This document shows positions 1 through 62,985 of a stretch of DNA of 64,000 bases, piece by piece. The notes beneath the pieces are model-generated. The model did no database searches. It was not told the DNA's origin and saw only the letters and a program-made list of their open reading frames with translations. How positions within the stretch are numbered: position 1 is the stretch's first letter; each line of letters opens with the position of its first letter. The DNA lies in contig OZ024747.1 in the NCBI GenBank assembly GCA_964016885.1, positions 9,920,001 through 9,984,000 on the forward strand. The letters run 5' to 3'. The translations under genes and the position numbers were made by a program. Source of the DNA: Eledone cirrhosa (Eukaryota).

Positions 1-308
1 AAGTGACATCTTGCTTTCACACCTTCCAGCTTTGGCATCATTTCTACAGCTGGATGTCTTTCCTGTCACTAACTACTTTACAAAGTGTACTGCATACATT
101 TTACCCACACCTGGGAAGTTGTCATGTCCTTGATTCAACTGAAAAGTCCTCTCAAATATATATATATATATAAGTAGAAGGGGTATTTAATTTGTTGGAA
201 GTTCGACAAATATAAATGTTTATAACTGATTTAGAGCACTCAACAAGTTACTGGAGTAAATATTCAATGATATTAAATAAATGGAAACTATATTTATAAA
301 ACCATATT

Positions 309-372
309 TATTTTATTATATATATTTCAAGGATACCAAGACAACATTGGTACGCTTTCATCAGATAAAATA
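309..372 (-). ncRNA. Minimal type I hammerhead ribozyme motif (left arm)
   Basis: Reverse complement reads TATTTTAT CTGATGA AAGCGTACCAA TGTTGTC TTGGTATCCTT GAAA TATATA TA ATAAAATA: 8-bp stem I, stem II and a palindromic stem III. Confidence 0.75.
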
Positions 373-456
373 CAGAGTTTGTTTTATAAATAGAGACATA
401 CCCATGAAAATCATACCTTATCGGTTGGAAATTCACTATTTATAAAACAAACTTTG

Positions 457-520
457 TATTTTATCTGATGAAAGCATACCAATGTTGTCTTGGTACCCTT
501 GAAATATATATAATAAAATA
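457..520 (+). ncRNA. Minimal type I hammerhead ribozyme motif (right arm)
   Basis: Stem I TATTTTAT 457-464 pairs with ATAAAATA 513-520. CTGATGA at 465-471, stem II TACCAA/TTGGTA, GAAA at 501-504, palindromic TATATA, then UH site TA at 511-512. Confidence 0.75.
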
Positions 521-965
521 AATATGGTTTTATAAATATAGTTTCCATTTATTTAATATCATTGTGTATATATATATATATATTATTTGTTTTTGTTTTG
601 CATTGTTTTTGAAAAGGAGGTTATGTTGAAATATACTGGGTGAGAAAGACATTGCTTTGTTTTGTTTTATCATCCTTTGCCCTATATATACATTTCTACC
701 GCATTGTACCAGCTTTCTGAAATACTTATTAGTCATATAAATATATATATATATAAATATATATAAATATATATATATATATATAATCAATACTTGTAGT
801 AATAGTAGTGGTAGCAGCAATAGTCGACTTGTATTTGCTACCACAAAAAACTATTTATGCAAGTTGTAGTATATAGAGTGTTTCTTAGGTAATTGTTGGG
901 GGCAGAGCAGTGGGATTAGTTGGTGCGAGGTGGACCCCACCCCCCCCACCCCACCCCACCCCCCA

Positions 966-2167: not shown

Positions 2168-2212
<45 letters not shown>

Positions 2213-2390
2213 TTGTACATACACATATATGTACATCTGTGAGCGTATATACATACATATACACACACTTAACTATATTTCTTGAAAGATTTTTATATAT
2301 TTCATATGGCTATTGTTATTCATTTGTCTATATATAATTTTTTTTTTGCTTTTCTTGATGAGACTTTCCAAGTATTTAGCCATGTTTTAT

Positions 2391-2468
2391 ATTGCCTCAT
2401 CTGACGAACGAATGAAGACGTTTCTTTCGTATTCACCTCATTCGGGAAACCTCTGGTAATGAGGTAAT
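2391..2468 (+). ncRNA. Type I hammerhead ribozyme with intact catalytic core
   Basis: Stem I ATTGCCTCAT 2391-2400 pairs with ATGAGGTAAT 2459-2468. CTGACGA at 2401-2407, stem II CGAATGA/TCATTCG, then GAAA, stem III ACC-TCT-GGT and a GUA cleavage triplet. Confidence 0.85.
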
Positions 2469-2497
2469 TATATTGTATTGATTTTTATACATTAAAT

Positions 2498-2519
2498 TAT
2501 ATATATATATATATATATA

Positions 2520-2558
<39 letters not shown>

Positions 2559-2795
2559 CAATATATATATATATGTCAATATATATGTCAATATATATAT
2601 ATGTCAATATATATATATATGTCAATATATATATATATATGTTAATATATATATATATATGTTAATATATATATATATGTCAATATATATATATATGTTA
2701 ATATATATATATATATATGTTAATATATATATATATATGTCAATATATATATATATATATATATATGTCAATATATATATATATATATCAATATA
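2498..2795. repeat. (TA)n microsatellite with GTCAA/GTTAA interruptions
   Basis: Read directly from the sequence. Confidence 0.95.
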
Positions 2796-3351
2796 TGTCT
2801 GTGTGTACGTATAATAATGTGTATGTGTGATACTTGATTGAAGAGGCCGTCAGTTGAACTGGCTGGCTGTTGATTTGATGATGTTCCACTGACCATCAGA
2901 TATATCCACCACACCCTTAATAAGCACACAGATACAATGAAAGTCCAATATGTGATTCATCATTATCCATTATTTTTCCAGTCACGTGTCACACATCACT
3001 ATAGGAGTTGAGATATAGAAGAGAAAGGCAAAACAAACATTACACAAATGACAGTAATATAGTGTCTATACATTCTACAATTGCACTGCTTCACTGTCAG
3101 TTAGATGTCCACATGGCAAGCAATAATGCAAGTTGATTGAGCCAACAGGAAACTGCAGAGAGAGCTATTTGGTTTCTGCTTTATTTGAGCCTATCTAATG
3201 CACACTCACAATCAGTGCAAACAAGATTATTTATTCTTTTCATTACCATATTTCTAATAAAATATACGGCCTATGCTTTTCAAATAATTTTGAAACTAAT
3301 CAAGAACTTTAGAGGGAATTAGTAGTGTAACTAACATTCTCATTATTAAGA

Positions 3352-3862
3352 AGGCGATGGATTGGCAGTATTGGTAGAGGGTCGATAAAATAAAGTACCA
3401 GTAATGCACTGGATAATTGCTGGCCTTGTGCCTAAAGTAGAAACAATTAAGTTGGTGTTGTTTATGGCGGTAGATTAGCAGTATCGGGAGAGCGTCGGAC
3501 AACATTCTTTGCAGCATAGAGTTATGGCTCTTTACATTCTGAGTTCAAATCCTGTCAAGATTAGCTTTGCTTTTCATACTTACAGGGCCGATAAAATAAA
3601 GTACCAGTAATGCACTGAGGTTGATATAATCGACTTTCCCCTCCCCCAAAAATTGTTGGCCTAATGCCTAAAGCAGTGGATTGGCAGTATCAGTAGAGGG
3701 TCGGACGCCATGCTTTGACGCAGAGTTACGGCCCTTGCCATTCTGAGTTCAAATCCCGCCGAGGTTAACTTTGCCTTTCATCCTTACGGGGTCGATAACA
3801 TAAAGTACCAGTAATGCACTGGGATAATTGCTGGCCTTGTGCCAAAAGTAGAAACAATTATT
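3352..3862 (+). mobile_element. Cluster of three tandem tRNA-derived SINEs (Nin/Deu-like central domain)
   Basis: A-box TTGGCAGTATCGG, B-box GAGTTCAAATCC, body GCCTTTCATCCTTACGGGGTCGATAAAATAAAGTACCAG and tail GCTGGCCTTGTGCC..AAAGTAGAAACAATTATT. The same family recurs more than 12 times in the window. Confidence 0.85.
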
Positions 3863-4087
3863 AATCTGCTTATTGGAACATAACTTAACAAAGGTTCTTA
3901 TGTGAAATCATGATGGCAGATTCACTTTACAGCACGCAATTGTTTTATTGTAGAATCAGGAGTGGTTTCGGGTGTCTTGCTGTTAAAAGGGTTAAAGATC
4001 TTCTAGATATGACCATCCTTTCATCATTGTAGGTCAGCTGACAATACATCACACAATCATGTTCACATGAACACATACCTATAAGCA

Positions 4088-7000
4088 CTACATACACACA
4101 CACACTCACACATACATACATATCACTACATATATGCACAGACTCACAGATACATACATATCACTACATATACACACACACTCACACATACATACATATC
4201 ACTACATATACATACATATCACTACATATATGCACAGACTCACAGATACATACATATCACTACATATATATACAGACTCACACATACATACATATCACTA
4301 CATATACACACACACTCACACATACATACATATCACTACATATATATACAGACTCACACATACATACATATCACTACATATATATACAGACTCACACATA
4401 CATACATATCACTACATATACACACACACTCACACATACATACATATCACTACATATACACACACACTCACACATACATACATATCACTACATACACACA
4501 GACTCACACATACATACATATCACTACATATACACACACACTCACACATACATACATATCACTACATATACATATACTCACACATACATACATATCACTA
4601 CATATACACACACTCACACATACATACATATCACTACATATACACACAGACTCACACATACATACATATCACTACATATACACACACACTCACACATACA
4701 TACATATCACTACATATACACACACTCACACATACATACATATCACTACATATACACACACTCACACATACATACATATCACTACATATACACACAGACT
4801 CACACATACATACATATCACTACATATACACACACTCACACATACATACATATCACTACATATACACACACACTCACACATACTTACATATCACTACATA
4901 CACACAGACTCACACATACATACATATCACTACATATACACACACACTCACACATACATACATATCACTACATATATATACAGACTCACACATACATACA
5001 TATCACTATATATACACACACACTCACACATACATACATATCACTACATATACACACACACTCACACATACATACATATCACTACATATACACACACACT
5101 CACACATACATACATATCACTACATACACACAGACTCACACATACATACATATCACTACATATACACACACACTCACACATACATACATATCACTACATA
5201 TACACACACTCACACATACATACATATCACTACATATACACACACTCACACATACATACATATCACTACATATACACACAGACTCACACATACATACATA
5301 TCACTACATATACACACACACTCACACATACATACATATCACTACATATACACACACACTCACACATACATACATATCACTACATACACACAGACTCACA
5401 CATACATACATATCACTACATATACACACACACTCACACATACATATCACTACATATACACACACACTCACACATACATACATATCACTACATACACACA
5501 GACTCACACATACATACATATCACTACATATACACACACACTCACACATACATACATATCACTACATATATATACAGACTCACACATACATACATATCAC
5601 TACATATATACACACACTCACACATACATACATATCACTACATATACACACACACTCACACATACATACATATCACTACATATACACACACACTCACACA
5701 TACATACATATCACTACATATATACAGACTCACACATACATACATATCACTACATATACACACACACTCACACATACATACATATCACTACATATATATA
5801 TACAGACTCACACATACATACATATCACTACATACACACACACTCACACATACATACATATCACTACATATACACACACTCACACATACATACATATCAC
5901 TACATATATACACAGACTCACACATACATACATATCACTACATACACACACTCACACATACATACATATCACTACATACACACACACTCACACATACATA
6001 CATATCACTACATATACACACACACACTCACACATACATACATATCACTACATATACACACACACTCACACATACATACATATCACTACATATACACAGA
6101 CACTCACACATACATACATATCACTACATATACACACACACTCACACATACATACATATCACTACATATACACACACACTCACACATACATACATATCAC
6201 TACATATACACAGACTCACACATACATACATATCACTACATATACACACACACTCACACATACATACATATCACTACATATACACACACACTCACACATA
6301 CATACATATCACTACATATACACACACTCACACATACATACATATCACTACATATACACACACACTCACACATACATACATATCACTACATATATACACA
6401 CACTCACACATACATACATATCACTACATATATACACACACTCACACATACATACATATCACTACATATATACACACACTCACACATACATATCACTACA
6501 TATATACACAGACTCACACATACATACATATCACTACATACACACACACTCACACATACATACATATCACTACATATACACACACACTCACACATACATA
6601 CATATCACTACATATACACACACTCACACATACATACATATCACTACATATACACACACACTCACACATACATACATATCACTACATATATACACAGACT
6701 CACACATACATACATATCACTACATATACACACACACACTCACACATACATACATATCACTACATATACACACACACTCACACATACATACATATCACTA
6801 CATATATATACAGACTCACACATACATACATATCACTACATACACACACACACTCACACATACATACATATCACTACATACACACACACTCACACATACA
6901 TACAACTCACTACATATATACACAGACTCACACATACATACATATCACTACATATACACACACACTCACACATACATACATATCACTACATATACACAGA

Positions 7001-8705
7001 CACTCACACATACATACATATCATTACATATACACACACACTCACACATACATACATATCACTACATATACACACACACTCACACATACATACATATCAC
7101 TACATATACACACACACTCACACATACATACATATCACTACATATATATACAGACTCACACATACATACATATCACTACATATACACACACACTCACACA
7201 TACATACATATCACTACATATACACACACACTCACACATACATACATATCACTACATATATACACAGACTCACACATACATACATATCACTACATATACA
7301 CACACACACTCACACATACATACATATCACTACATATACACACACTCACACATACATACATATCACTACATATACACACACACTCACACATACATACATA
7401 TCACTACATATATACACACACTCACACATACATACATATCACTACATACACACACACTCACACATACATACATATCACTACATATATACACAGACTCACA
7501 CATACATACATATCACTACATATACACACACACACTCACACATACATACATATCACTACATATACACACACACTCACACATACATACATATCACTACATA
7601 TATATACAGACTCACACATACATACATATCACTACATACACACACACTCACACATACATACATATCACTACATATACACACACACTCACACATACATACA
7701 ACTCACTACATATATACACAGACTCACACATACATACATATCACTACATACACACACACTCACACATACATACATATCACTACATATATACACAGACTCA
7801 CACATACATACATATCACTACATATACACACACACACTCACACATACATACATATCACTACATATACACACACACTCACACATACATACATATCACTACA
7901 TATATACACAGACTCACACATACATACATATCACTACATATACACACACACACTCACACATACATACATATCACTACATATACACACACACTCACACATA
8001 CATACATATCACTACATATATATACAGACTCACACATACATACATATCACTACATACACACACACTCACACATACATACATATCACTACATATACACACA
8101 CACTCACACATACATACATATCACTACATACACACACACTCACACATACATACATATCACTACATACACACACACTCACACATACATACATATCACTACA
8201 TATACACACACTCACACATACATACATATCACTACATATACACACACACTCACACATACATACATATCACTACATATACACACACTCACACATACATACA
8301 TATCACTACATATATACACACACTCACACATACATACATATCACTACATACACACACACTCACACATACATACATATCACTACATATACACACACACTCA
8401 CACATACATACAACTCACTACATATATACACAGACTCACACATACATACATATCACTACATACACACACACACTCACACATACATACATATCACTACATA
8501 CACACACACACTCACACATACATACATATCACTACATACACACACTCACACATACATACATATCACTACATACACACACACTCACACATACATACATATC
8601 ACTACATATATACACACACTCACACATACATACATATCACTACATATACACACACACTCACACATACATACATTTCACTACATACACACACTCACACATA
8701 CATAC
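4088..8705. repeat. 4.6-kb minisatellite of ~30-36-bp units (CTCACACATACATACATATCACTACA + variable TA/CA tract)
   Basis: Well over 100 near-identical units. The 1524-aa H/T/Y/I ORF arises because the unit lacks stop codons on this strand. Confidence 0.97.
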
Positions 8706-10651: not shown

Positions 10652-13600
10652 GATAATGACAGCAACATCATCGATGACAACACCAAAAAGACAACTGGTG
10701 TGCTAGATTCAACAGATATGGAAAAACTCCAAAGGAATCACAAGAACTCACACAAACTTCAGAACAACTCGCTATTGACTTGTCAAGCTTGCTTTCAGTT
10801 GACAGTTCGGAGATTTCTAATGAACTGTCACATGACTATGTTGCTAAGCGACCAAAATCTCCAGAAGATCATTCGGAGTCATCTCAGGAAACATCTTCAT
10901 CTGATTCTGATGGAGACTATCCATCAAATCAACATCTAATTCTAGAATTTGGTGTAGAAAATGATGTGAACAATAAGTGTGCCGAGGTTCTGTTGGCGGA
11001 CATTTCATCAGATGAGGTCCAACTACATTCTGAAGAGGTTCGAGAGGAGACAGATAAGGTAGCATTAATTGAACCAAATCTCTCTAAAACAATTGTTTCA
11101 GCTCATCCTATCACAGCTGAAGAACAAATCCCCACTGAAGAATTTCCAGAACATTCTCAGTGTCTCACTTTCCAAGCAACTGAAGAAATCTCTGAAGAGA
11201 ATTCCATCATAGAAACTGGAGTTGATTTCACCGAAGGTCTTCATGACAAAATGTTTGATGATGTTTCAGGATTTGTTGACAGAAAAGAAAATTTCTTTGG
11301 AATTACTCGTCAACAGATTAATAGACCTTTACTTAAGTACAGTCTTCCCATTAGCATCAGCCAGGCTGAATCTAGTCCCTCTTTACAAGAAGGGTCTCGT
11401 TGTGAAACGTCTCCAGAAACTCTAAGTTCTTATGTGGATATTTGCCAGATGAAGCTAACTGATAGTCTACTAGAGAGTGAAAATAAAGAAATATTTGCAG
11501 ACTTGTGTAAAAGCAAGGAGTGTAATGTGAACCAGCCTGTAGATTTGAGTGAATCCCAACAGGTAGATAAGAAAGTAGATAATGTCAATGTTTTGGAATC
11601 CATTGAGAAAGAATTTGATATTACTTCAGTTAGCTCTTTTGAAGAAAGTAGCGTAATAATTTCAGACAATTCTTTAAATGAGAAATCAATGTCTGACAAA
11701 TACGATTCTGAAGAGAAAACAACACCAATTACTCTTGATGAAGTGAAATCGAACATTACGGAAGATATCTTGAAAAAACAGTCAGAAGATAACTTGTCCG
11801 ATACTGAGATAAAGTTGAAACAAGAAAAACCTTGTGAAACTACTCAGACATTGTCAGAAGAATTTTACAAAGAATGTTCTGGAAGTGAATCAAGTGAAGT
11901 TGTGGCTGAGCTACCAGAAGAACTAAAGAAACAAGAAGATCAATTTACTCTTTCAGAGAAACAATGGGCAACATTAGATGAAGACCAAAGACAGGAAGCA
12001 GACATGTGTGGAAATTACAGTACCGAGAAAGAGACTGATACTGGTATAAAGAATACAGGAACCAAGAATAAAAAGAAAAAGAAACAGAAGAGAAAACCAA
12101 AGTTCTTTGCTCTTGATAATGAAATGTTAATGCAGTTTGTTGAAACAACAGCAGAATTATCCAAGGAATCTGAATTCGAATGTTCAGGCATAGATCCAAA
12201 CATATCTTCAATGGAGGAAAATGATAGTGCTATATCTAAAGACCAAATCAAAGTTCAACCTTTGGCTGATCAACAAATGGAACAATCTTTGGAAGAATTA
12301 GCATCAACTAACTTAGAAGCTGAAGACAAACTTCAAATATCTGAAGATTTGGATACTTTAAGGCAGAATAAGATCAGTTCAGAGGAAACAGAAGAACGTG
12401 ATGTGTCACATGATGCTGTCTTTGTGAATGCCATTGCTGAACAGATGTCTTCAGACGAACTGCTGGAGTCTGAGCTTACTGCAAATGTGATAGAAGAAAA
12501 TGCTGAAATAGAAGAGGTGAAGCAAGTTGTAGATAAATTAGCTGTGAGTCCTTGTAAGGAAATGCTTACTCATGAAACTGAGATCTCCTCAAGTATAGAA
12601 TTGAAGGTCAGTGAAATTATTAGTGAAGCAATCAAAGACAACACGATCAACGTTAAGTGTATAGATGAAGTCAACTTTGATTCAGCTTCAGTCCAACAAC
12701 ATGAAACATTTGTGAATGAAGCTTACACTGAGTCTTGTCAGCTTCCCAAGGAACAAACAGACATAGAGGTCGTTCAACATATTTCCGTTGACCAATTGGA
12801 GAAGAAAGGTGGACAGAAGAAGAAAAAGATTGATTTTGTAAAATGTGCCAAGATTTCAGATGTTGAGGAAACATTTACAATGTCATCCAATGTTAATTTA
12901 ACTGGTGAGTGGAACAAAGTAACTCAGCTGGAGATAGAATACAGTTCATGTCTATTGAAGACAGCAGAAGATCCAGTTCAGTTGGAGATTGACAGCATCA
13001 CTGCTCCACTGGAAACAAAGGAAAGTACGGAGATAGAAGATGACAGTACAGTTCTATTGAAGACTGAGGATAGTACAGGCTTGATGGAAACTCAAGACAG
13101 TACAGTTCTGTTGAAGACTGAGGACAGTTCAGGCTTGTTAGAGAGTGGTGATAGTACAGTTCTGTTGAAGACTGAGGACAGTACAGGCTTGATGGAAACT
13201 CAAGACAGTACAGTTCTGTTGAAGACTGAGGATAGTTCAGGCTTGATAGAGAGTGAGGACAGTACAGTTCTGTTGAAGACTGATGATAGTACATCTCAGT
13301 TGGAAACTTGGGACAGTAGTACAGTTCTGTTGGAGACAGAAACATCCAGAAAACCAGCTTTGATTTCAGAAAAAATAGATCTGGAATCAAAGATTACAGA
13401 AATTGAGCCAAAAAAGCAGTTAGAACATAAATGTGATGGTGAAACTATCGTTGCCACCAATACCACGTTGCCTGTTCAGTCAGCTGTAACAGGAGGTGAT
13501 TTAAATGTACCAGAGGAGGAAAAACCAAAGAAGAAACGAAAGAAAAGGAGATCTCCATTCTTGTATGGTGAAGACGCAATCAGTTCATCTGTTATTATAG

Positions 13601-41542: not shown

Positions 41543-41608
41543 TATTTTATTATATATATTTCAAGGGCGACCAAGGCAAATTATGGTGCGCTTTCATCAG
41601 ATAAAATA
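41543..41608 (-). ncRNA. Minimal type I hammerhead motif, sense to the ATP synthase e pre-mRNA
   Basis: Reverse complement reads TATTTTAT CTGATGA AAGCGCACC...GGTCGCCCTT GAAA TATATA TA ATAAAATA. Confidence 0.72.
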
Positions 41609-41620
41609 CAGATTTGTTTT

Positions 41621-43493
41621 CATCATCACCGTTTTACGTCCATTCTTCCATGCTAGCATGGGTTAGATGGGTTGTCCTGTTGTGGGCAGTGTCTGGTCGG
41701 CTGACCATGCCTTGCTCATACAGGAACTGATTTTGGCTTGGTTTCTACAGCTGGATGCCCTTCCTAACACCAACCTCATTTACAGTGAGTGCTGGGTGCT
41801 TTTTTCCGCGGCGCCTGCATGTCCACTTTAGTGTGGGCTGGGTGCTTTTTTGCCGTGGCACCTCCACGACCACTTTGCAGTGGGAGGGTGTGGGGGCATA
41901 TTGTCTATATGCTTCAGCTTGTACCCATGGGAGGTTGGGTACTCTGTATTACTGCGTGACGCCAGAGGTCACGGTCGTGTGTCTTTTATCACCTCATCCC
42001 AGGTCTTCTTGGGTCTCCCCACTCCGCGGTTTCCATTGACTTCAAGTGCTCTGCACCTTTTCATGCAGCTGTCATCCTTCATACGCATCACATGTCCATA
42101 CCAACACAACCGCCTCTCTTGCACACAGCATTTGATTCCTCCTATGCTCAGTCTCTCTCTCAATTCATTTATGCTTTGCCGTTTGCGTATATTACTATTA
42201 CACATCCATCGGAGCATGAGGCTTCGTTTCTTTCTAATCTACGCAAGTCTTCCACGGACAGCGCCCAGGTCTCACTACCATGTAACATTGCGGTTCGTAA
42301 ACACACATCATACAGCCTGCCTTTTATTTTGAGGGAGAAGCCTTTTGCAGCTAGCAGTGGCAATAGTTCCCTGAACTTCTTCCATCCCGTTCTTACCCTA
42401 GTTATTGTACTTTCTGAATACCCACCTCCGCTGCTAATTCGGTCACCTAGGTAGGAGAAGCTGTCTACTGTTTCTACAGAGCCCTCCCAGAGATTGGTGG
42501 TACTTGTTTCCTGTGGCTGTTTGCTGCCCCAGCACAGCTGCTACATTCTTAATTAAGCTTCCTGAGATCCCGCTACATCTCTTGTGTTTGCATTTGGGGC
42601 AGAGAATAGAGTTCCTACCTACACCTTTCCTACATACTGAGCAAGGCCATTTCCCTGAGGGGATCTGGGTTCTGTTTTCTCGTCTACTTACAAGGACCTT
42701 AGTCTTTGTCATGTTGACTTTGAGACCCTTTCTTTCTAGTCCCTGCTTCTAAGTTTGGAATTTCTTCTCTAGTTCTACCATAGATTCATCTATAAGTGCG
42801 AGGTCATCTGCATACAGGAGTTCCCATGGGCATCCGGTCTTAAACTCCTCCGCTATTGCCTGCAGAACTATGATGAACAGGAGAGGGCTAAGAACAGAGC
42901 CCTGGTGGACACCAACCTGTACGCTAAATTCCTCGCTATACTCATTGCTAATCCTAACTTTGCTGACTGCTCCCCTATACATGGCTTGTACAGCTTTCAC
43001 AAGCCATTCATCTACTCCTAATTTTCTAAGAGCCCACCAGATTATAACACATGGAACTCTGTCAAAGGCTTTCTCGAGATCGACGAATGCCAGGTAGAGT
43101 GGCTTACTTTTAGCTAGGTACTTTTCCTGTAACTGCCTCACAAGGAAGAGGGCATCAGTGGTGCCTCTTCCTGGTACAAACCCAAATTGCATCTCATCTA
43201 ATTTCACCCGGTCCCTAATCAACTGTGCTATTATTCTTTCTGTTACTTTCATGACCTGGTCCATCAGCTTTATACCTCTATAGTTTCCTCTATCTAGTGC
43301 ATCACCTTTACCTTTGTAGCAGTTGACAATGATGCTACTGCACCAATCATTTGGTATGACACCTTCTAGTATTACCTGGTTAACAATACGTGTGGTTATA
43401 GTGTGACCTACAGACCCAGATGCCTTCAGCATCTCGGCAGCTATACCCGATGGACCGGTTGCCTTCCCCATCTTCATATCTTTGATTACCTTC
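41621..43493 (-). mobile_element. 5'-truncated, inactivated RTE-clade non-LTR retrotransposon
   Basis: RT motifs KATGPSG, NYRGIKL, FVDLEKAFD, GVHQGSVLSP and YADD (42749-43495), then a premature TAG and frameshifts. Followed by a KWPCSVC Cys-rich segment, MLHGSETW, RLCWYGHVMRM, a 3' UTR and a (GAT)n end. Confidence 0.93.
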
Positions 43494-43634
43494 ATAAATA
43501 AATTTTTACATACCCAGATAAAAAGACAACCTTAACGGTTGGAGCTTCCTGGATAGTGACTATCCAGGAAGCTCCAACCGTTAAGGTTGTCTTTTTTTCC
43601 GGGTATGTCAATATTTATTTATAAAACAAATCTG

Positions 43635-43700
43635 TATTTTATCTGATGAAAGCGCACCATAATTTGCCTTGGTTGCCCTTGAAATATATATAATAAAATA
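43635..43700 (+). ncRNA. Minimal type I hammerhead motif (right arm of copy 2)
   Basis: TATTTTAT 43635-43642, CTGATGA 43643-43649, stem II, GAAA 43681-43684, TATATA TA, ATAAAATA. Confidence 0.72.
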
Positions 43701-57593: not shown

Positions 57594-57768
57594 AGGATAG
57601 TAGACGTGTTTCATATCGCTCTGTGATTTGGAATTTTACCTGCTATATTTGTGAGTGAATTTTTTTGAATTCTTTTGTATCATTAACTCTAACCCCTAGT
57701 CTGGGACTATAGACGTAGGGTAAATATATTTTCACCCCTTTTGGGGTGAAAAAATAAATATTTCAGAA

Positions 57769-59523
57769 ATGTTTATCGATATCGTTGATAACGTTATCGT
57801 CGAAAACGATATCGCCATATTGGAAGCGAACGCCACGCCGACCAAAAAAACAAGCGGGAAAGAGGGAACAACAGTTCAAACTGTTGAACAGCCCCTCCTC
57901 TCCAATGAAAAAAAAAAGAATTTTAATTCAAATGAAAAAATTAATTTTCAAGAAAAAAATAACACCACAAATAAGGAAACCAACAACATTACAACAACAA
58001 ACACAGACAACAAAATTTCTTTTGCCCAAACACTCAGGAAAGCCACGGAATACAAACCCATTGACATCACGAACGCTAAGGAAAATTTGCTAGAGGCTAG
58101 AAAATACGTATCTTTTGGGGAGGATGGTTCTTTTACGATCAACTCCCCAGAAGAAGTGCGTCAACAGATTTACAAGAATACCGTAACCTACAGAACCATA
58201 ACCAACGAAACGAGAAAGCCAGCGCAATTGACCGAAAGTCAAATTGAGCTGGTTCTGAAAGAAATTAAAGACGACATACTCTTTATTCAAAGAGGAAGGC
58301 TGTATGCCAGCATTATGGTCCGAATGAAGGATGAAATGCTGGCTCAGAAATATTCGGTGGCACCTATAGTGTCACCACAATACACCTTCTTCCCCACATA
58401 TAAAGGAAGAAGAACACAAAGGATAAGAATGTGGAGCCCTACGCCAGAAATTAACATCTGGTCCGTCCTAACAGGATTTACCGACCTAGATAAGGACATA
58501 CTCATTTCAGCAGGGGAGTCCACCAGTGGACTGTTCGGGGGGAAAAGTCTGGAGGTTCTCTTACAGATGACACCTGAGAGAATCTCCGGAATACCCGACC
58601 GAGTGCTACTGGATGGGCGAACCTTCATAAATATCACAGTGGAAGGCAGGAGACCCTCATGTTACCACTGCGCTGGCAGAGGTCACCTGAGGACGGCCTG
58701 CCCTCTACTAACAACAAAAAAACCACTGCTACAAACACCACAACAACAAAAACAACCAGCACCACCATCACAAAAACAACAAAATACACTACCATCACCA
58801 CCAGAACGACAACAAAAACCAACACCACCACCACCACCACCACAACATCATCAACAACAGCTCAAGAAAACAACCCAAAACACGGTCCCACCCAGCCCCA
58901 CCCCACAGAACACAAATACAAAAACAGTTCATACACAACCCGGAGATATACCCCTCCCCTCCAATACGGAAGAGGAGCTCATATCGTCGGAAGACGAGGG
59001 GGCTCCCTTCCAAAAAGTGAAAAGAAAAAAACGTACACACACCACACAAACAAAAATAACCCCCCCTGACAACACAACACAGACAATAAAACGCAAACTC
59101 ACTCAACAACAACAAGCAAAAACAAACACAACAACACAAAAACTCTACACATACATAAACAAAAACAATGAAAACCTAACTTTAAAAATAGAAACCAACC
59201 CTTCGCTACAAACCGAAGGGCCGAATTTCGTAACGGCAATGGGGCTCCCTAACCTGAAAATGGTGAAAATCCCACTTGAGATTTTCAAAACTTTGAAAGA
59301 CATTTACCCTGAGGACGTGGGCCCACCCTGTACCAGGCCACTCAACCGCGTCCTCCTGAAAGGTTTTCCCCTCCCCTCCTCAAACACCCACACAACTCCA
59401 AAGATCCCAATCCCTCCACACACTAATACCCCCACACCACCACAAACCACCACCCCACCCATCAACCCCTCCACCAGCCCCATGGAAACTGAGCGACCCG
59501 AACCCCGGGACGCAGAGAGGTAA
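57769..59523 (+). CDS. Retrotransposon ORF1 (584 aa, gag-like CCHC knuckle CYHCAGRGHLRTAC, Pro/Gln/Thr-rich tail)
   Basis: Uninterrupted ORF with a CX2CX4HX4C motif, positioned upstream of pol. Confidence 0.9.
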   Translation: MFIDIVDNVIVENDIAILEANATPTKKTSGKEGTTVQTVEQPLLSNEKKKNFNSNEKINFQEKNNTTNKETNNITTTNTDNKISFAQTLRKATEYKPIDITNAKENLLEARKYVSFGEDGSFTINSPEEVRQQIYKNTVTYRTITNETRKPAQLTESQIELVLKEIKDDILFIQRGRLYASIMVRMKDEMLAQKYSVAPIVSPQYTFFPTYKGRRTQRIRMWSPTPEINIWSVLTGFTDLDKDILISAGESTSGLFGGKSLEVLLQMTPERISGIPDRVLLDGRTFINITVEGRRPSCYHCAGRGHLRTACPLLTTKKPLLQTPQQQKQPAPPSQKQQNTLPSPPERQQKPTPPPPPPQHHQQQLKKTTQNTVPPSPTPQNTNTKTVHTQPGDIPLPSNTEEELISSEDEGAPFQKVKRKKRTHTTQTKITPPDNTTQTIKRKLTQQQQAKTNTTTQKLYTYINKNNENLTLKIETNPSLQTEGPNFVTAMGLPNLKMVKIPLEIFKTLKDIYPEDVGPPCTRPLNRVLLKGFPLPSSNTHTTPKIPIPPHTNTPTPPQTTTPPINPSTSPMETERPEPRDAER

Positions 59524-59546
59524 GTGCCTCTTTCTTTGCCACCAAC

Positions 59547-62500
59547 ATGGCTGTCTTAAGAGTAGGTTGTCTAAATGCGCGTGGCCTGGGCTCACCTTGG
59601 AAGCAAGCTAAACTTCTAAGTGACCTCAGGTCACAATGTGTAAATGTGATGGTTATTTGCGAGGCCCGGATCAGCAACATGCGACAGCTAACCCCCACCT
59701 TTGATGACTTTGAGATGCACGCATCTCTCTGTCAGCCTGGAGGTGGGGGTGGGGTTGTCGTTCTGCTGCAAAAACATCTGGGTCTCGCTACACAGACGGT
59801 ACACTTGGACCCGGAGGGTCGACTCGTGGTTCTGGACCTTGGCAATGGCGAAGGCGAAGCTTTTAGGCTTGTCGCCGTATACGCCCCTTTTGGGGCAATG
59901 CGGTCGGACTTCTTCCATCGTCTGGAGACTTTTCTAGGGACGTCCCGCTCCTTGCTTTTAGTGGGGGGACTGGAATGGTATCCTAGATGCACGTTGGGAC
60001 TATGTAGGGGCATGTCCCGATAGAGGGGGGTGTAACAGCCTTAAGGGGTTAATCGGCCGATTCGACCTGGCCGATAGATACCGACTAGATTTTCCGACTG
60101 TACCAACCTGGACCTGGTCAAATAACAGTGATCAATCTAGATCGTACCTAGATAGGTTCTTAGTTAGAATTAAGGATAGGGACTTTTTAAGTTGTCCAGA
60201 AATGCTCATGGTGGGCTATTCAGACCACAAGTTAGTGACCTGCGTAGTCCACCTTGATAGAACGCATAGGCAGGGGCCCGGTTACTGGAAGCTCAACTTG
60301 TCCTTACCGGCAAGTAGAGCTTACAGGGACCGGATTAGAACCTTAGTTAAGGAGCGGTTGACGGGCGCCATCGTCAACAACAGGTGGTGGGGCTCTCTAA
60401 AAAGAGAGATTAGAGTAGTTTCAATAGGAGTTAGTAAGGAGTTAGCCTCAGATAGAAATAGGAAGGAAAGGGAGTTGGTAGTTAATGTTGAAGAGGCAAT
60501 GAGAAGCAGCAATGTGGCTAGAGTGCAAGCGTCGAGAACGGTCTTGAACCAGTTCTTCGACACGAAACACGAAGGCTGCGTTGTCCGAAGTAAAATACGT
60601 GCTATGGGAAACGAGGGGACCAAAGCTGTTAGCTGGGCCCGCGTGACAGAAGCGAAAAGTGGGATTAAATCCACTATCCGGTCTTTGCGAGACCAGGATG
60701 GACGGGTGATCCTTGAACCTAAGCAAATGTGCGAGGCCTTTCAAAGGCACTTTGCCCAATTGTTCGGGAGGGGCGGGGAGCCGGTTGGAGATGTGGATTT
60801 CGGTCCATACCTCGACGGCCTGCCGCGTCTTTCGGACAGGGAGGCGAGGTCCTGCGACGGGCCGATCTCAGCTGCTGAAATAGGGGACGTGCTGAGCCTA
60901 TGCGGCAAACGCAAATCTCCAGGACTCGATGGTCTGCCCTACGAACTATATATTAATATGCCGGACTTGTTCCCCGATCTCCTCGAGGCGGTCTACTGCA
61001 ACTGGCAACAGAACGGGAGAATTCCCTGTTCTGTGACCAAGGGCGTAGTCTCGCTAGTGAGGAAGGACGAGAACAAGGGGGATGACATTAGTAATTTTAG
61101 GCCCATAACTCTGCTAAATGCAGAGTTAAAGATTTTGGCGAAGGTGTTAGCGAAGAGGTTGGCGCTTGTCGTGGGGGGGCCTGGTGGGAGATGCGCAGAC
61201 ATGCGCTATCCCGTCCAGGTCCATCCACGACAACCTCCACCTCATGCGATACATCATAGAGAGGGTTGGGAACGAACCCGGCTTTGGTGGGGCCCTGATA
61301 AATTTAGATCAGTCTAAAGCGTTCGATAGGGTGGACCATGGTTACCTGGATGCGGTGCTAGCGGCGGCTGGGTTCGGACCCGTTTTCAGGGGCTGGATCA
61401 CTGCCATGCACAGCAGCTGCATCTGCTCTAGAGTCAAGGTGAACGGCTACCTTTCGGAGCCGTTCGAAATCACACGCTCCATCCGACAGGGATGCCCTCT
61501 CTCCTCCCTTCTGTATGTATTGGCTCTCGAGCCACTACTGCGGAAGTTGGAGTTGTTGCAGGGCATCCCTTTGGAACCGGGATTGCGCAAAGCGGTGTCG
61601 GCCTATGCCGATGACGTAACAGTAATGGTGTCGACCACCTCGGAAATCGAGGCAATCGGCACCTTACTGGAGGAGTACGAAAGGTTGACAGGGGCTAAGC
61701 TGAACCGGGACACGTCAGTCGCTTTGCAACTCGGCGAGTGGAGGGGCAAAGCGATGTCGTGCGACGGTATCGTCGGACATGGACGGAGGGCCCGGTGAAG
61801 TTGCTTGGGGTGTGGTTCGGACCGGACCTCCAGGTGGAGAAAAACTGGGGTGAGGTGACGAATAGGGTGTTTGCACTGACCCAGAAGTGGGCCGAGTGCA
61901 AACTATCCCTGAAAGGTCGGGCGGAGGTGGCGAACGCTTACATAGCGTCCGTCATCTATTACCGCTTGACTGTCGTGCCTTGCCCGGGTGAGATCCTCGC
62001 CAAAATGGAGCGCGCCCTCTTTTATTTCCTTTGGAAGAAGAGGTCTCCTCTGGTGAGGAGATCCATCTGCTGTCAACACCCTCTGAAAGGAGGGCTGGGG
62101 ATGCCGTGGCTAAAAATGCGTAAACACGCATTGAGGCTAAGGTACCTCCAGGTATTCCTCACCGGTCAACCGGTGTGGGCCCCGTTTGTGAGGCGAGCCT
62201 TCCCGAGGCTCGTCTCGCTCACCGAGCTGCAGTCCTGGGTGAAGCAAAGACCGAGAAAACTGGGCGACTGGCACATCGAGTGTGCCCAGGCGCTCACGGC
62301 TCTCTGGCAGGCGGACCCGGCTATCGACGGAGACTCCACCTCGTCATTCTATAGAGGGCTGGTGGTTAGCGGGTGCGACGACGCCCTTGGAGAAGCCCTA
62401 GGCATGGAGGAGGACGAACTGGCCAGTCTATTCGGTAGGACTTTCGGCCCGGGACCTATGGACAACTTCCAGAAGTCCTTGGCCTGGCAGTGCTACCGAG

Positions 62501-62985
62501 GGGCTCTGCCCGTTCGGGATAAGCTCTACAGACACGGGCGCCCGGGTAGGGACCCCTCGAAAAAGATCTGTCCCAGATGCGTGCGCGATGAGGAAACCGT
62601 CGCGCACGCATTGGTGCACTGCCCGGGCGTTGCCGATCTGTGGGGCTATGTCGAACAACTGCTGTCACGGGTGGGACCAATTAGGTTGACCACCGAGTCC
62701 ATAGTAACGATCAAGCCGCCTCCCCCCTTCAAAAATGAAGGAGAGGCGGTCTTCCTCTGTGTAATAGCCATGGTAAAAGAGGCTATATGGTGGACGCGTC
62801 TGAAAGGGCTGAGGTCGGACACCTTTCTCTCCGGCCAACAACTGGTCCTTTTCTTCCGATACCATTTCGGAAGAAGGATCAGGATGGAGAGAGAGGTGCT
62901 CCACTCCAGCCAGTTTTATGAAAGGTGGGTGAAAGTTGCGAGAATGGACCGTGTGAATGGGCCTTCTCTCTACCTCAGCCTGTAG
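59547..62985 (+). CDS. Retrotransposon ORF2 (APE + RT + Cys-rich domain), with three 1-nt frameshifts at about 59965, 61175 and 61779
   Basis: Motifs NARGL, VYAP, GDWN, YLDRF, SDH, GYWKLN, KSPGLDG, FRPITLLN, DQSKAFDRV, RQGCPLS, YADD, LLGVWF and CPRC..HALVHC. No in-frame stops once the shifts are corrected. Confidence 0.9.

What the first reader, a model, noticed from the sequence alone, without database searches (positions are those of the whole stretch)
2391..2468. Stand-alone type I hammerhead with a fully intact core
Seen: 10-bp stem I (one G-U pair), CUGACGA, 7-bp stem II with a long loop, GAAAC, a short stem III ACC-UCU-GGU and a GUA cleavage triplet, about 30 nt before a (TA)n tract. 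The sequence is unrelated to the fold-back family, so this is a second ribozyme-bearing family. Inference: the best candidate in the window for an active self-cleaving RNA, on the same strand as the giant-exon gene about 8 kb downstream.
Basis: partly seen in the sequence, partly recalled or inferred. Interest (0 to 1): 0.72.

Follow-up and report, generated by a model that had tools for sequence, protein, structure and literature searches.

The report
Hammerhead end of Penelope-like retrotransposon
This hammerhead ribozyme motif is real but is not stand-alone: it is the tail end of a cut-short copy of a known kind of jumping gene, one of about 15,000 related motifs in this animal genome, and it lacks a normally conserved base pair, so it likely cuts itself only weakly, if at all.

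Summary
It lies about 30 nt from the 3' end of a 5'-truncated, roughly 300-bp copy of a Hydra-clade Penelope-like retroelement inserted in (TA)n. Longer copies carry the RT/GIY-YIG-type ORF with the Hydra motifs. The subfamily has 1,025 copies and the wider lineage 15,341 motifs, against 18 for the control. Single-stranded core bases are intact, and stems I and II covary between families. The G10.1-C11.1 pair is replaced by A·G, and G-C sits two steps further up. Published Hydra hammerheads show the same layout, mostly with U·U; A·G, C·A and A·A are not in that table. This copy has no tandem partner, folds mainly into competing hairpins, and has no RNA data. A weak excess of copies starting at the cut site (16 vs 6 and 3) hints at some in vivo cleavage. 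The scan noted Hydra-clade hammerheads in this genome before, on other DNA. Verdict: new member of a known kind; low interest.

The parts
2200..2498 (+). 5'-truncated 3' end of a Hydra-clade Penelope-like element (last ~300 bp of the 3' UTR / pseudo-LTR); the 5' edge is blurred by TA microhomology
   Evidence: 93-95% match over 330-380 aligned bases to three long ORF-bearing copies L032, L033, L038; shared boundaries
2391..2400 (+). Stem I, 5' arm. A2399 is the minority state; most close copies have G (G-U pair)
   Evidence: G2399 in 26 of 29 other top copies
2401..2407 (+). Core C3-U4-G5-A6-C7-G8-A9
   Evidence: G5 mutants only 309 vs 8,991 intact
2408..2408 (+). Position 10.1 (A), facing G2445: mismatch in place of G10.1-C11.1
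   Evidence: kept in 29 of 29 other top copies and in 1,025 subfamily copies
2409..2444 (+). Stem II: 7 bp (C-G at 10.2, G-C at 10.3), irregular upper stem and loop; the rare A2435 breaks an upper C-G pair
   Evidence: G2435 in 24 of 29; A2435 in 2 of the 100 copies listed
2445..2445 (+). Position 11.1 (G, not C)
   Evidence: C at this place in only 162 of 15,341 lineage motifs
2446..2449 (+). Core G12-A13-A14-A15.1
2449..2457 (+). Stem III, 3 bp with a non-palindromic UCU loop
2458..2459 (+). Predicted cleavage site, 3' of A17 (GUA)
   Evidence: hammerhead numbering (established knowledge); weak excess of 5' junctions here
2459..2468 (+). Stem I, 3' arm
2408..2465 (+). Predicted competing fold: hairpin 2408-2430 plus hairpin 2435-2465, which hides the cut site
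   Evidence: ViennaRNA; not conserved across families (p=0.25)
2469..2498 (+). 3' terminus of the 'short' class (ends ~36-40 nt after the cut site, without the ~75-nt tail)
   Evidence: 13 of 30 top copies short, 17 of 30 with tail
2168..2209 (.). (TA)n target, 5' side
2498..2796 (.). (TA)n target, 3' side

Best explanation
The motif is the type I hammerhead in the terminal repeat (pLTR) of a Hydra-clade Penelope-like retrotransposon, and this locus is a 5'-truncated ~300-bp copy in a (TA)n tract that is likely a passive leftover. SHOWN: in longer copies the motif lies 1.3-1.4 kb after the stop of an RT/endonuclease ORF, and in tandem copies the cut site lies 229 nt before the next ATG. The core and stems are kept across diverged families, while the 10.1-11.1 pair is free to mismatch. 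INFERRED (about 0.6): in tandem transcripts of intact parents the ribozyme cuts slowly or conditionally, probably helped by the element's own protein as reported for an anole Penelope element. It would trim a minority of RNAs at the start of the 5' UTR, while most cDNA is made from uncut RNA. INFERRED (about 0.85): this copy was made by target-primed reverse transcription that stopped after ~300 nt, and it has no function of its own.
For: Copies: 1,266 candidates, 41 matches at 97-100%; 1,025 exact-pattern subfamily copies. ORF link. Hydra motifs RWK, DKT, CxCx5C, CxxC and CxH present; GxKF/Y and Cx2-5CxxC absent (against the definition). By eye close to Hydra-1_Obim. Tandem and inverted arrangements. 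Two 3' end classes, as for the anole element's two RT starts. Selection on the RNA: own-family arms pair better than cross-family arms, stem I p=0.0014 and stem II p=0.0001 over 9 families, p=0.006 and 0.0026 over 6 lineages; a paired U-A insertion at the base of stem I in three families; G5 mutants 3.4% and scattered. Uncut template: 7 of 30 ORF-centred loci read through the ribozyme, 1 starts at the cut site. Some cutting: 16 independent 5' junctions at the cut site vs 6 and 3 at two control positions, binomial p=0.002. Precedent for protein-assisted, dispensable cleavage: PMC11167929.
Against: No cleavage assay. Pfam gives no hit on the 719-aa frame, so the protein is filed by motifs and by-eye comparison, not by a tree. 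The junction excess is small (16 events against more than 1,500 copies in two subfamilies); 9 of the 16 are inverted or fold-back joins that can use AT-rich microhomology, and with joins to unrelated flank alone it is about 7 vs 3 vs 1 (p=0.04). The families share ancestry and were grouped by me by hand, so the permutation p-values are optimistic. A Hydra-type ORF was linked to families A, A2, B and F only; none was found in the right place for C, D and E. ViennaRNA ignores tertiary contacts, so the ~1% figure may understate the active fold.
Confidence: 0.8

Rival explanations
1. The ribozyme is robustly active as a monomer. The long stem II and 3-bp stem III make up for the missing G10.1-C11.1 pair, and cleavage routinely sets the 5' end of the element's mRNA.
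For: Core and stems under selection across families. The 3-bp stem III has a non-palindromic loop, a poor fit for dimers. A natural U10.1-U11.1 mismatch was reported among tested variants (PMC3088659). Junction excess at the cut site.
Against: 7 of 30 ORF-centred loci read through the motif and 1 starts at the cut site. The competing fold dominates in this family. The same paper, citing earlier work, says U-U supports more activity than any other mispair. Metazoan PLE hammerheads were weak in vitro.
Confidence: 0.2
2. The fold is kept as a binding or folding element for the element's RT/endonuclease (template recognition near the internal RT start sites), and cleavage is vestigial.
For: The pair next to the core varies freely (0 of 61 G-C; eight different combinations), while G-C at 10.3 and A-U at 10.4 are nearly fixed. 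Both 3' end classes lie 36 and 111 nt downstream. Cleavage was dispensable for insertion in vitro in the anole element.
Against: Catalytic G5 is kept in all amplified families seen, the cleavage triplet is GUA in 59 of 61, and 5' junctions are enriched at the cut site.
Confidence: 0.15
3. This copy has been co-opted by the host and cleaves the pre-mRNA of the large gene downstream.
For: Same strand as the 2,087-codon ORF at 10678-16941; single-stranded core intact.
Against: It differs from the family majority by only two changes in 146 nt, so it is young. One change strengthens the inactive fold. Copies are evenly split by strand. No upstream exon was recognised in 20 kb before the window, and a run of N separates the copy from the ORF.
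Confidence: 0.03

Closest known systems
Hydra-clade Penelope-like elements and their hammerheads, especially Hydra-1_Obim (Craig et al. 2021, PMC8557442; seen: passages, section 11, supplement parts 1-2 of 59 and search hits)
   Same: RWK, DKT, CxCx5C, CxxC and CxH motifs; C-terminal endonuclease; (TA)n targets; 3' hammerhead with a 3-bp stem III and 3-nt loop (ACC/GGU also in Hydra-1_Obim). By my count of File S2, positions 10.1/11.1 in 25 families are U·U 14, U·C 1, G·U 3 and G-C 7, usually followed by a Y-R pair and then G-C: the same displaced G-C.
   Different: Unit about 3.8 kb with a 1.3-1.4-kb 3' UTR (published: generally under 3 kb). Stem II is longer. A·G, C·A and A·A at 10.1/11.1 are not in that table. 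Copy number is high.
Minimal hammerheads of metazoan PLE pLTRs (Cervera and De la Pena 2014, PMC4209133; seen: parts 1-2 of 4)
   Same: Type I motif in pLTRs; long helix II; mostly dispersed single copies from truncated elements; inverted pairs.
   Different: They have an extra nucleotide between 9 and 10.1, a conserved G10.1-C11.1 pair and a palindromic or absent helix III. Here there is no G10.1-C11.1, stem I is longer, and stem III is non-palindromic.
Poseidon PLE of Anolis (Frangieh et al. 2024, PMC11167929; seen: parts 1-2 of 4)
   Same: pLTR hammerhead; two 3' end classes (optional tail).
   Different: Different clade; its ORF starts inside the ribozyme, whereas here the ATG is 229 nt past the cut site. 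Protein assistance was not tested here.
Non-LTR retrozymes (bioRxiv 10.64898/2026.07.22.740005, part 1 of 5; PMC7229834, search listing only)
   Same: Type I hammerhead, PLE-related.
   Different: Retrozymes are short non-coding tandem repeats. This is a single truncated end of a coding element.

Membership tests
Type I hammerhead ribozyme | Core CUGANGA ... GAAA ... UH with three helices and open stem I | tested here: met
Type I hammerhead ribozyme | Covarying stems I and II | tested here: met
   family-level permutation test; pair table for 61 motifs
Type I hammerhead ribozyme | G10.1-C11.1 (or R-Y) pair closing stem II | tested here: not met
   A·G here; C11.1 in 162 of 15,341; G-C in 0 of 61. 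Also unmet in 18 of 25 published Hydra motifs, so it marks a known variant rather than exclusion.
Type I hammerhead ribozyme | Rfam hammerhead model match | tested here: not met
Type I hammerhead ribozyme | Stem I / stem II tertiary contact | not tested
   no search for a loop-loop contact or pseudoknot was run
Type I hammerhead ribozyme | Site-specific self-cleavage | not testable with these tools
   only an indirect junction excess, 16 vs 6 and 3
Penelope-like element (EN+) | Single ORF with RT and C-terminal GIY-YIG-type endonuclease | tested here: met
   natural 719-residue open frame in L061 with YRDD at 353 and YVG at 601; 1,214 homologues at E<=1e-30, one carrying PF01541 (that this accession is GIY-YIG is recalled); no direct Pfam hit
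Penelope-like element (EN+) | Partial tandems (pLTR), inverted 5'-truncated copies, optional tail | tested here: met
Hydra clade | RWK present, DKG changed to DKT, no GxKF/Y | tested here: met
Hydra clade | CxCx5C linker; CxxC and CxH around the conserved E and N; no Cx2-5CxxC finger | tested here: met
   (absence of CCHH judged only by reading the sequence)
Hydra clade | Insertion into (TA)n | tested here: met
Hydra clade | Length generally under 3 kb | tested here: not met
   about 3.8 kb, summed; a described tendency, not a strict criterion
Hydra clade | Phylogenetic placement of the RT | not tested
   reference proteins seen only as supplement text; no tree built
Neptune clade (considered first) | Cx2-5CxxC linker, DKG, GxKF/Y | tested here: not met
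Non-LTR retrozyme | Short non-coding tandem units, each with a hammerhead | tested here: not met
   one copy in the window and the 20 kb upstream; the parent encodes a protein

The most novel reading that the evidence does not exclude
This lineage of thousands of Hydra-clade hammerheads cuts in vivo although the pair next to the catalytic core has drifted to purine-containing mismatches (A·G, C·A, A·A) thought to cripple the enzyme. A G-C pair two steps up stem II, or the element's own protein, would take over its role, and genomic copies starting at the cut site would record the cleavage. It would be a natural mutational series for the 10.1-11.1 position and a switchable, protein-gated ribozyme.
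Probability: 0.35. Interest if true: 0.45.

Novelty: new member of a known kind. Interest (0 to 1): 0.22.

Why it matters
As a locus it is ordinary: one dead stub among about a thousand near-identical copies. The lineage has modest value. The function of hammerheads in Penelope-like elements is stated to be unclear (PMC8557442). Here young families differ naturally at the 10.1-11.1 position, an intact natural ORF exists, and there is a countable footprint at the cut site, so protein-assisted cleavage could be tested directly. It also shows that Rfam misses these motifs, so 'no Rfam match' is a poor refutation test.

Tried and rejected
Rfam at two thresholds: no hammerhead; only spurious miRNA-type hits on TA repeats and the fold-back. 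Neptune filing: my first reading, dropped after an earlier scan note pointed to Hydra and the motifs were checked. 'The displaced G-C is a new variant': dropped, because it is visible in the published Hydra table. A conserved conformational switch: the competing hairpin is strong only in this family (p=0.25 and 0.17). CpG decay as the cause of the lost C11.1: cannot give A or G there, and neighbouring CpGs persist; it may explain G·U and A-U states in older families. Expression: no RNA holder listed; four contig sets of unknown kind, from one study, gave no start or end information. Host gene: no Pfam hit, no homologue for residues 1-600 among same-length candidates, no recognisable upstream exon. 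Own ORF for the fold-back family: none shared within 1.5 kb in 25 loci. ORF link for families C, D, E: none in the right orientation; of the 20 stretches, two B loci had ORF pieces and only L235 had them upstream in the motif's orientation. One search had a one-letter slip and counted the sister subfamily (537); one search counted the intended one. The MAFFT alignment A1 misregisters stem I, so covariation was computed on core-anchored arms; model R1 has no stem I pairs. Dropped rows: overlapping or other CUGAAGA-starting matches; loci picked for C11.1; a deletion copy and a few loci not assigned to a family. Of one search's loci, 40 of 70 were hand-picked for diversity. The paper on small dimeric PLE hammerheads (Lünse et al., recalled) was not held and may already list such variants. 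No paper describing these mismatches in a cephalopod or Hydra element turned up; subscription papers, Repbase, the supplements of PMC4209133 and PMC3088659 (not opened) and bioRxiv supplements (closed) were not seen.

Full report
Observation. My descriptor found 5 hammerhead-like sites in the window against 0.04 per shuffle, and 0 of 100 shuffles gave a site as good as this one. One point was missed: stem II is separated from the core by A2408 facing G2445, so G10.1-C11.1 is absent. Rfam reports no hammerhead.

It is not stand-alone. A 146-nt query gave 1,266 candidates in the 3.0-Gb own genome; 40 were scored, giving 41 matches at 97-100%. An exact pattern counts 1,025 copies of this subfamily and 537 of a sister subfamily. 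Copies share a 3' end and differ in 5' extent. The window copy runs from about 2200 to 2498 between two (TA)n tracts. Longer copies lead upstream, through 1,313-1,384 nt of UTR, to an ORF, and one copy holds a natural 719-residue open frame. Of 30 loci centred on the ORF, 7 have the hammerhead directly 5' of the ORF start, i.e. partial tandems, with 229 nt from cut site to ATG. Head-to-head inverted copies are common. Of 30 top copies, 13 end about 36 nt after the cut site, like this one, and 17 carry a tail to about +111 (one of these reads on in tandem). These are the hallmarks of Penelope-like elements as described in PMC8557442 and PMC11167929.

Clade. I first read the protein as Neptune. 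Earlier scan notes on this genome named the Hydra clade, so I tested the published definition. RWK (residue 44), DKT (121), CxCx5C (562), CxxC (665) and CxH (696) are present; GxKF/Y and Cx2-5CxxC are absent; 117-119 of 120 database homologues share each of four motifs. By eye the protein follows Hydra-1_Obim closely. No tree was built, and Pfam gave no hit.

The wider lineage. A relaxed pattern finds 15,341 motifs against 18 for the reversed control. They fall by eye into about nine related families; Hydra-type ORF pieces were linked to four of them. Stems I and II pair better within than between families (p=0.0014 and 0.0001 for nine families; 0.006 and 0.0026 for six lineages; shared ancestry makes these optimistic). 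Three families carry a paired U-A insertion at the base of stem I. G5 mutants number 309 against 8,991 intact and are scattered, about 1.1% per substitution. C at 11.1 occurs in 162 of 15,341 motifs, 1.1%, so near decay level, though small families with it are visible in the list. Among 61 motifs, positions 10.1/11.1 were C·A 15, A·A 11, U-A 10, A-U 10, A·G 8, C·U 5, G·A 1, G·U 1 and G-C 0, while 10.3/11.3 was G-C in 47 and 10.4/11.4 was paired in 61. The core is therefore under selection and the adjoining pair is not.

How new is that? Little. In File S2 of PMC8557442 I count 14 U·U, 1 U·C, 3 G·U and 7 G-C at this position among 25 Hydra families, usually followed by Y-R and G-C, with the same short stem III. 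A natural U·U case is also in PMC3088659. Only the purine-containing mismatches are absent from what I could read.

Does it cut? Not testable here. Against strong activity at this locus: the hammerhead fold is about 0.9% of the predicted ensemble for 100 nt and 4e-5 for 160 nt, because two competing hairpins form (tertiary contacts are not modelled). The rare A2435 lengthens one of them. There is no tandem partner in the window or the 20 kb upstream. For the family: read-through copies outnumber a copy starting at the cut site 7 to 1, so uncut RNA is probably the usual template, as in the anole element. A pattern test for 5' junctions, prompted by an earlier scan note, gave 26 hits at the cut site: 16 independent junctions, 3 duplicates and 7 internal deletions. 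Controls 14 nt upstream and 5 nt downstream gave 6 junctions (15 of 16 hits examined) and 3 (16 of 16); p=0.002, or 0.04 for joins to unrelated flank only. AT-rich microhomology or RT pausing could give the same excess, so this is a hint.

The host gene. The 2,087-codon ORF is on the same strand, but it has no Pfam hit or homologue, its upstream exons were not found, and subfamily copies are split evenly between strands. Nothing ties the motif to it.

Verdict. A genuine hammerhead motif at the end of a truncated Hydra-clade Penelope-like element: a new family of a known kind. The identity is well supported. Slow or protein-assisted cleavage in the parent element is the likeliest mechanism, and this copy is probably inert. 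Interest 0.22.

Noticed in passing
window 265-565; also 41543-41608 (-) and 43635-43700 (+): Fold-back family: head-to-head pairs of another hammerhead (A-U, A-U, then G-C at the base of stem II; palindromic AU stem III) ending in (TA)n; 1,199 candidates genome-wide. No ORF of its own within 1.5 kb in 25 loci; a weak match to this lineage's model.
   Followed up: partly
window 10678-16941 (+): 2,087-codon open frame, acidic and low-complexity with 27-nt repeats; no Pfam hit, no homologue for residues 1-600.
   Followed up: partly
window 4071-8705: 38-nt tandem array of about 123 copies with extreme C-over-G skew.
   Followed up: no
window 42749-43531 (-) and 57724-62985 (+): Non-LTR retrotransposon remains: RVT_1 hit in the first; several long frames with a zf-RVT hit in the second.
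   Followed up: no
window 3375-3863: Two diverged copies of a short repeat that recurs in many unrelated loci; SINE-like by appearance.
   Followed up: no
L181/L182 (G000:C3:224107575-224107651): A fold-back copy in which both arms begin exactly at the base after the predicted cut site, joined by an unrelated short palindrome.
   Followed up: partly
L239 (G000:C2:401572500-401580500): Three 3.1-kb repeats, each with a head-to-head hammerhead pair in which one member has a G5 mutation; probably a segmental tandem duplication.
   Followed up: no
L176, L180, L194-L196; L217, L218, L220, L223, L229, L231, L232: Recurrent deletions inside the ribozyme between short direct repeats; one type removes most of stem II, the second core half and stem III, the other removes the cut site.
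   Followed up: no
L031, L035, L155, L161, L168, L172: More distant Hydra-like ORF fragments (about 33-45% identity where aligned) lie next to unrelated hammerhead copies, consistent with nesting in shared (TA)n targets.
   Followed up: no
L168:2258-2995 (oriented): Intron-less open frame that looks like a Ras-family small GTPase, judged by eye.
   Followed up: no
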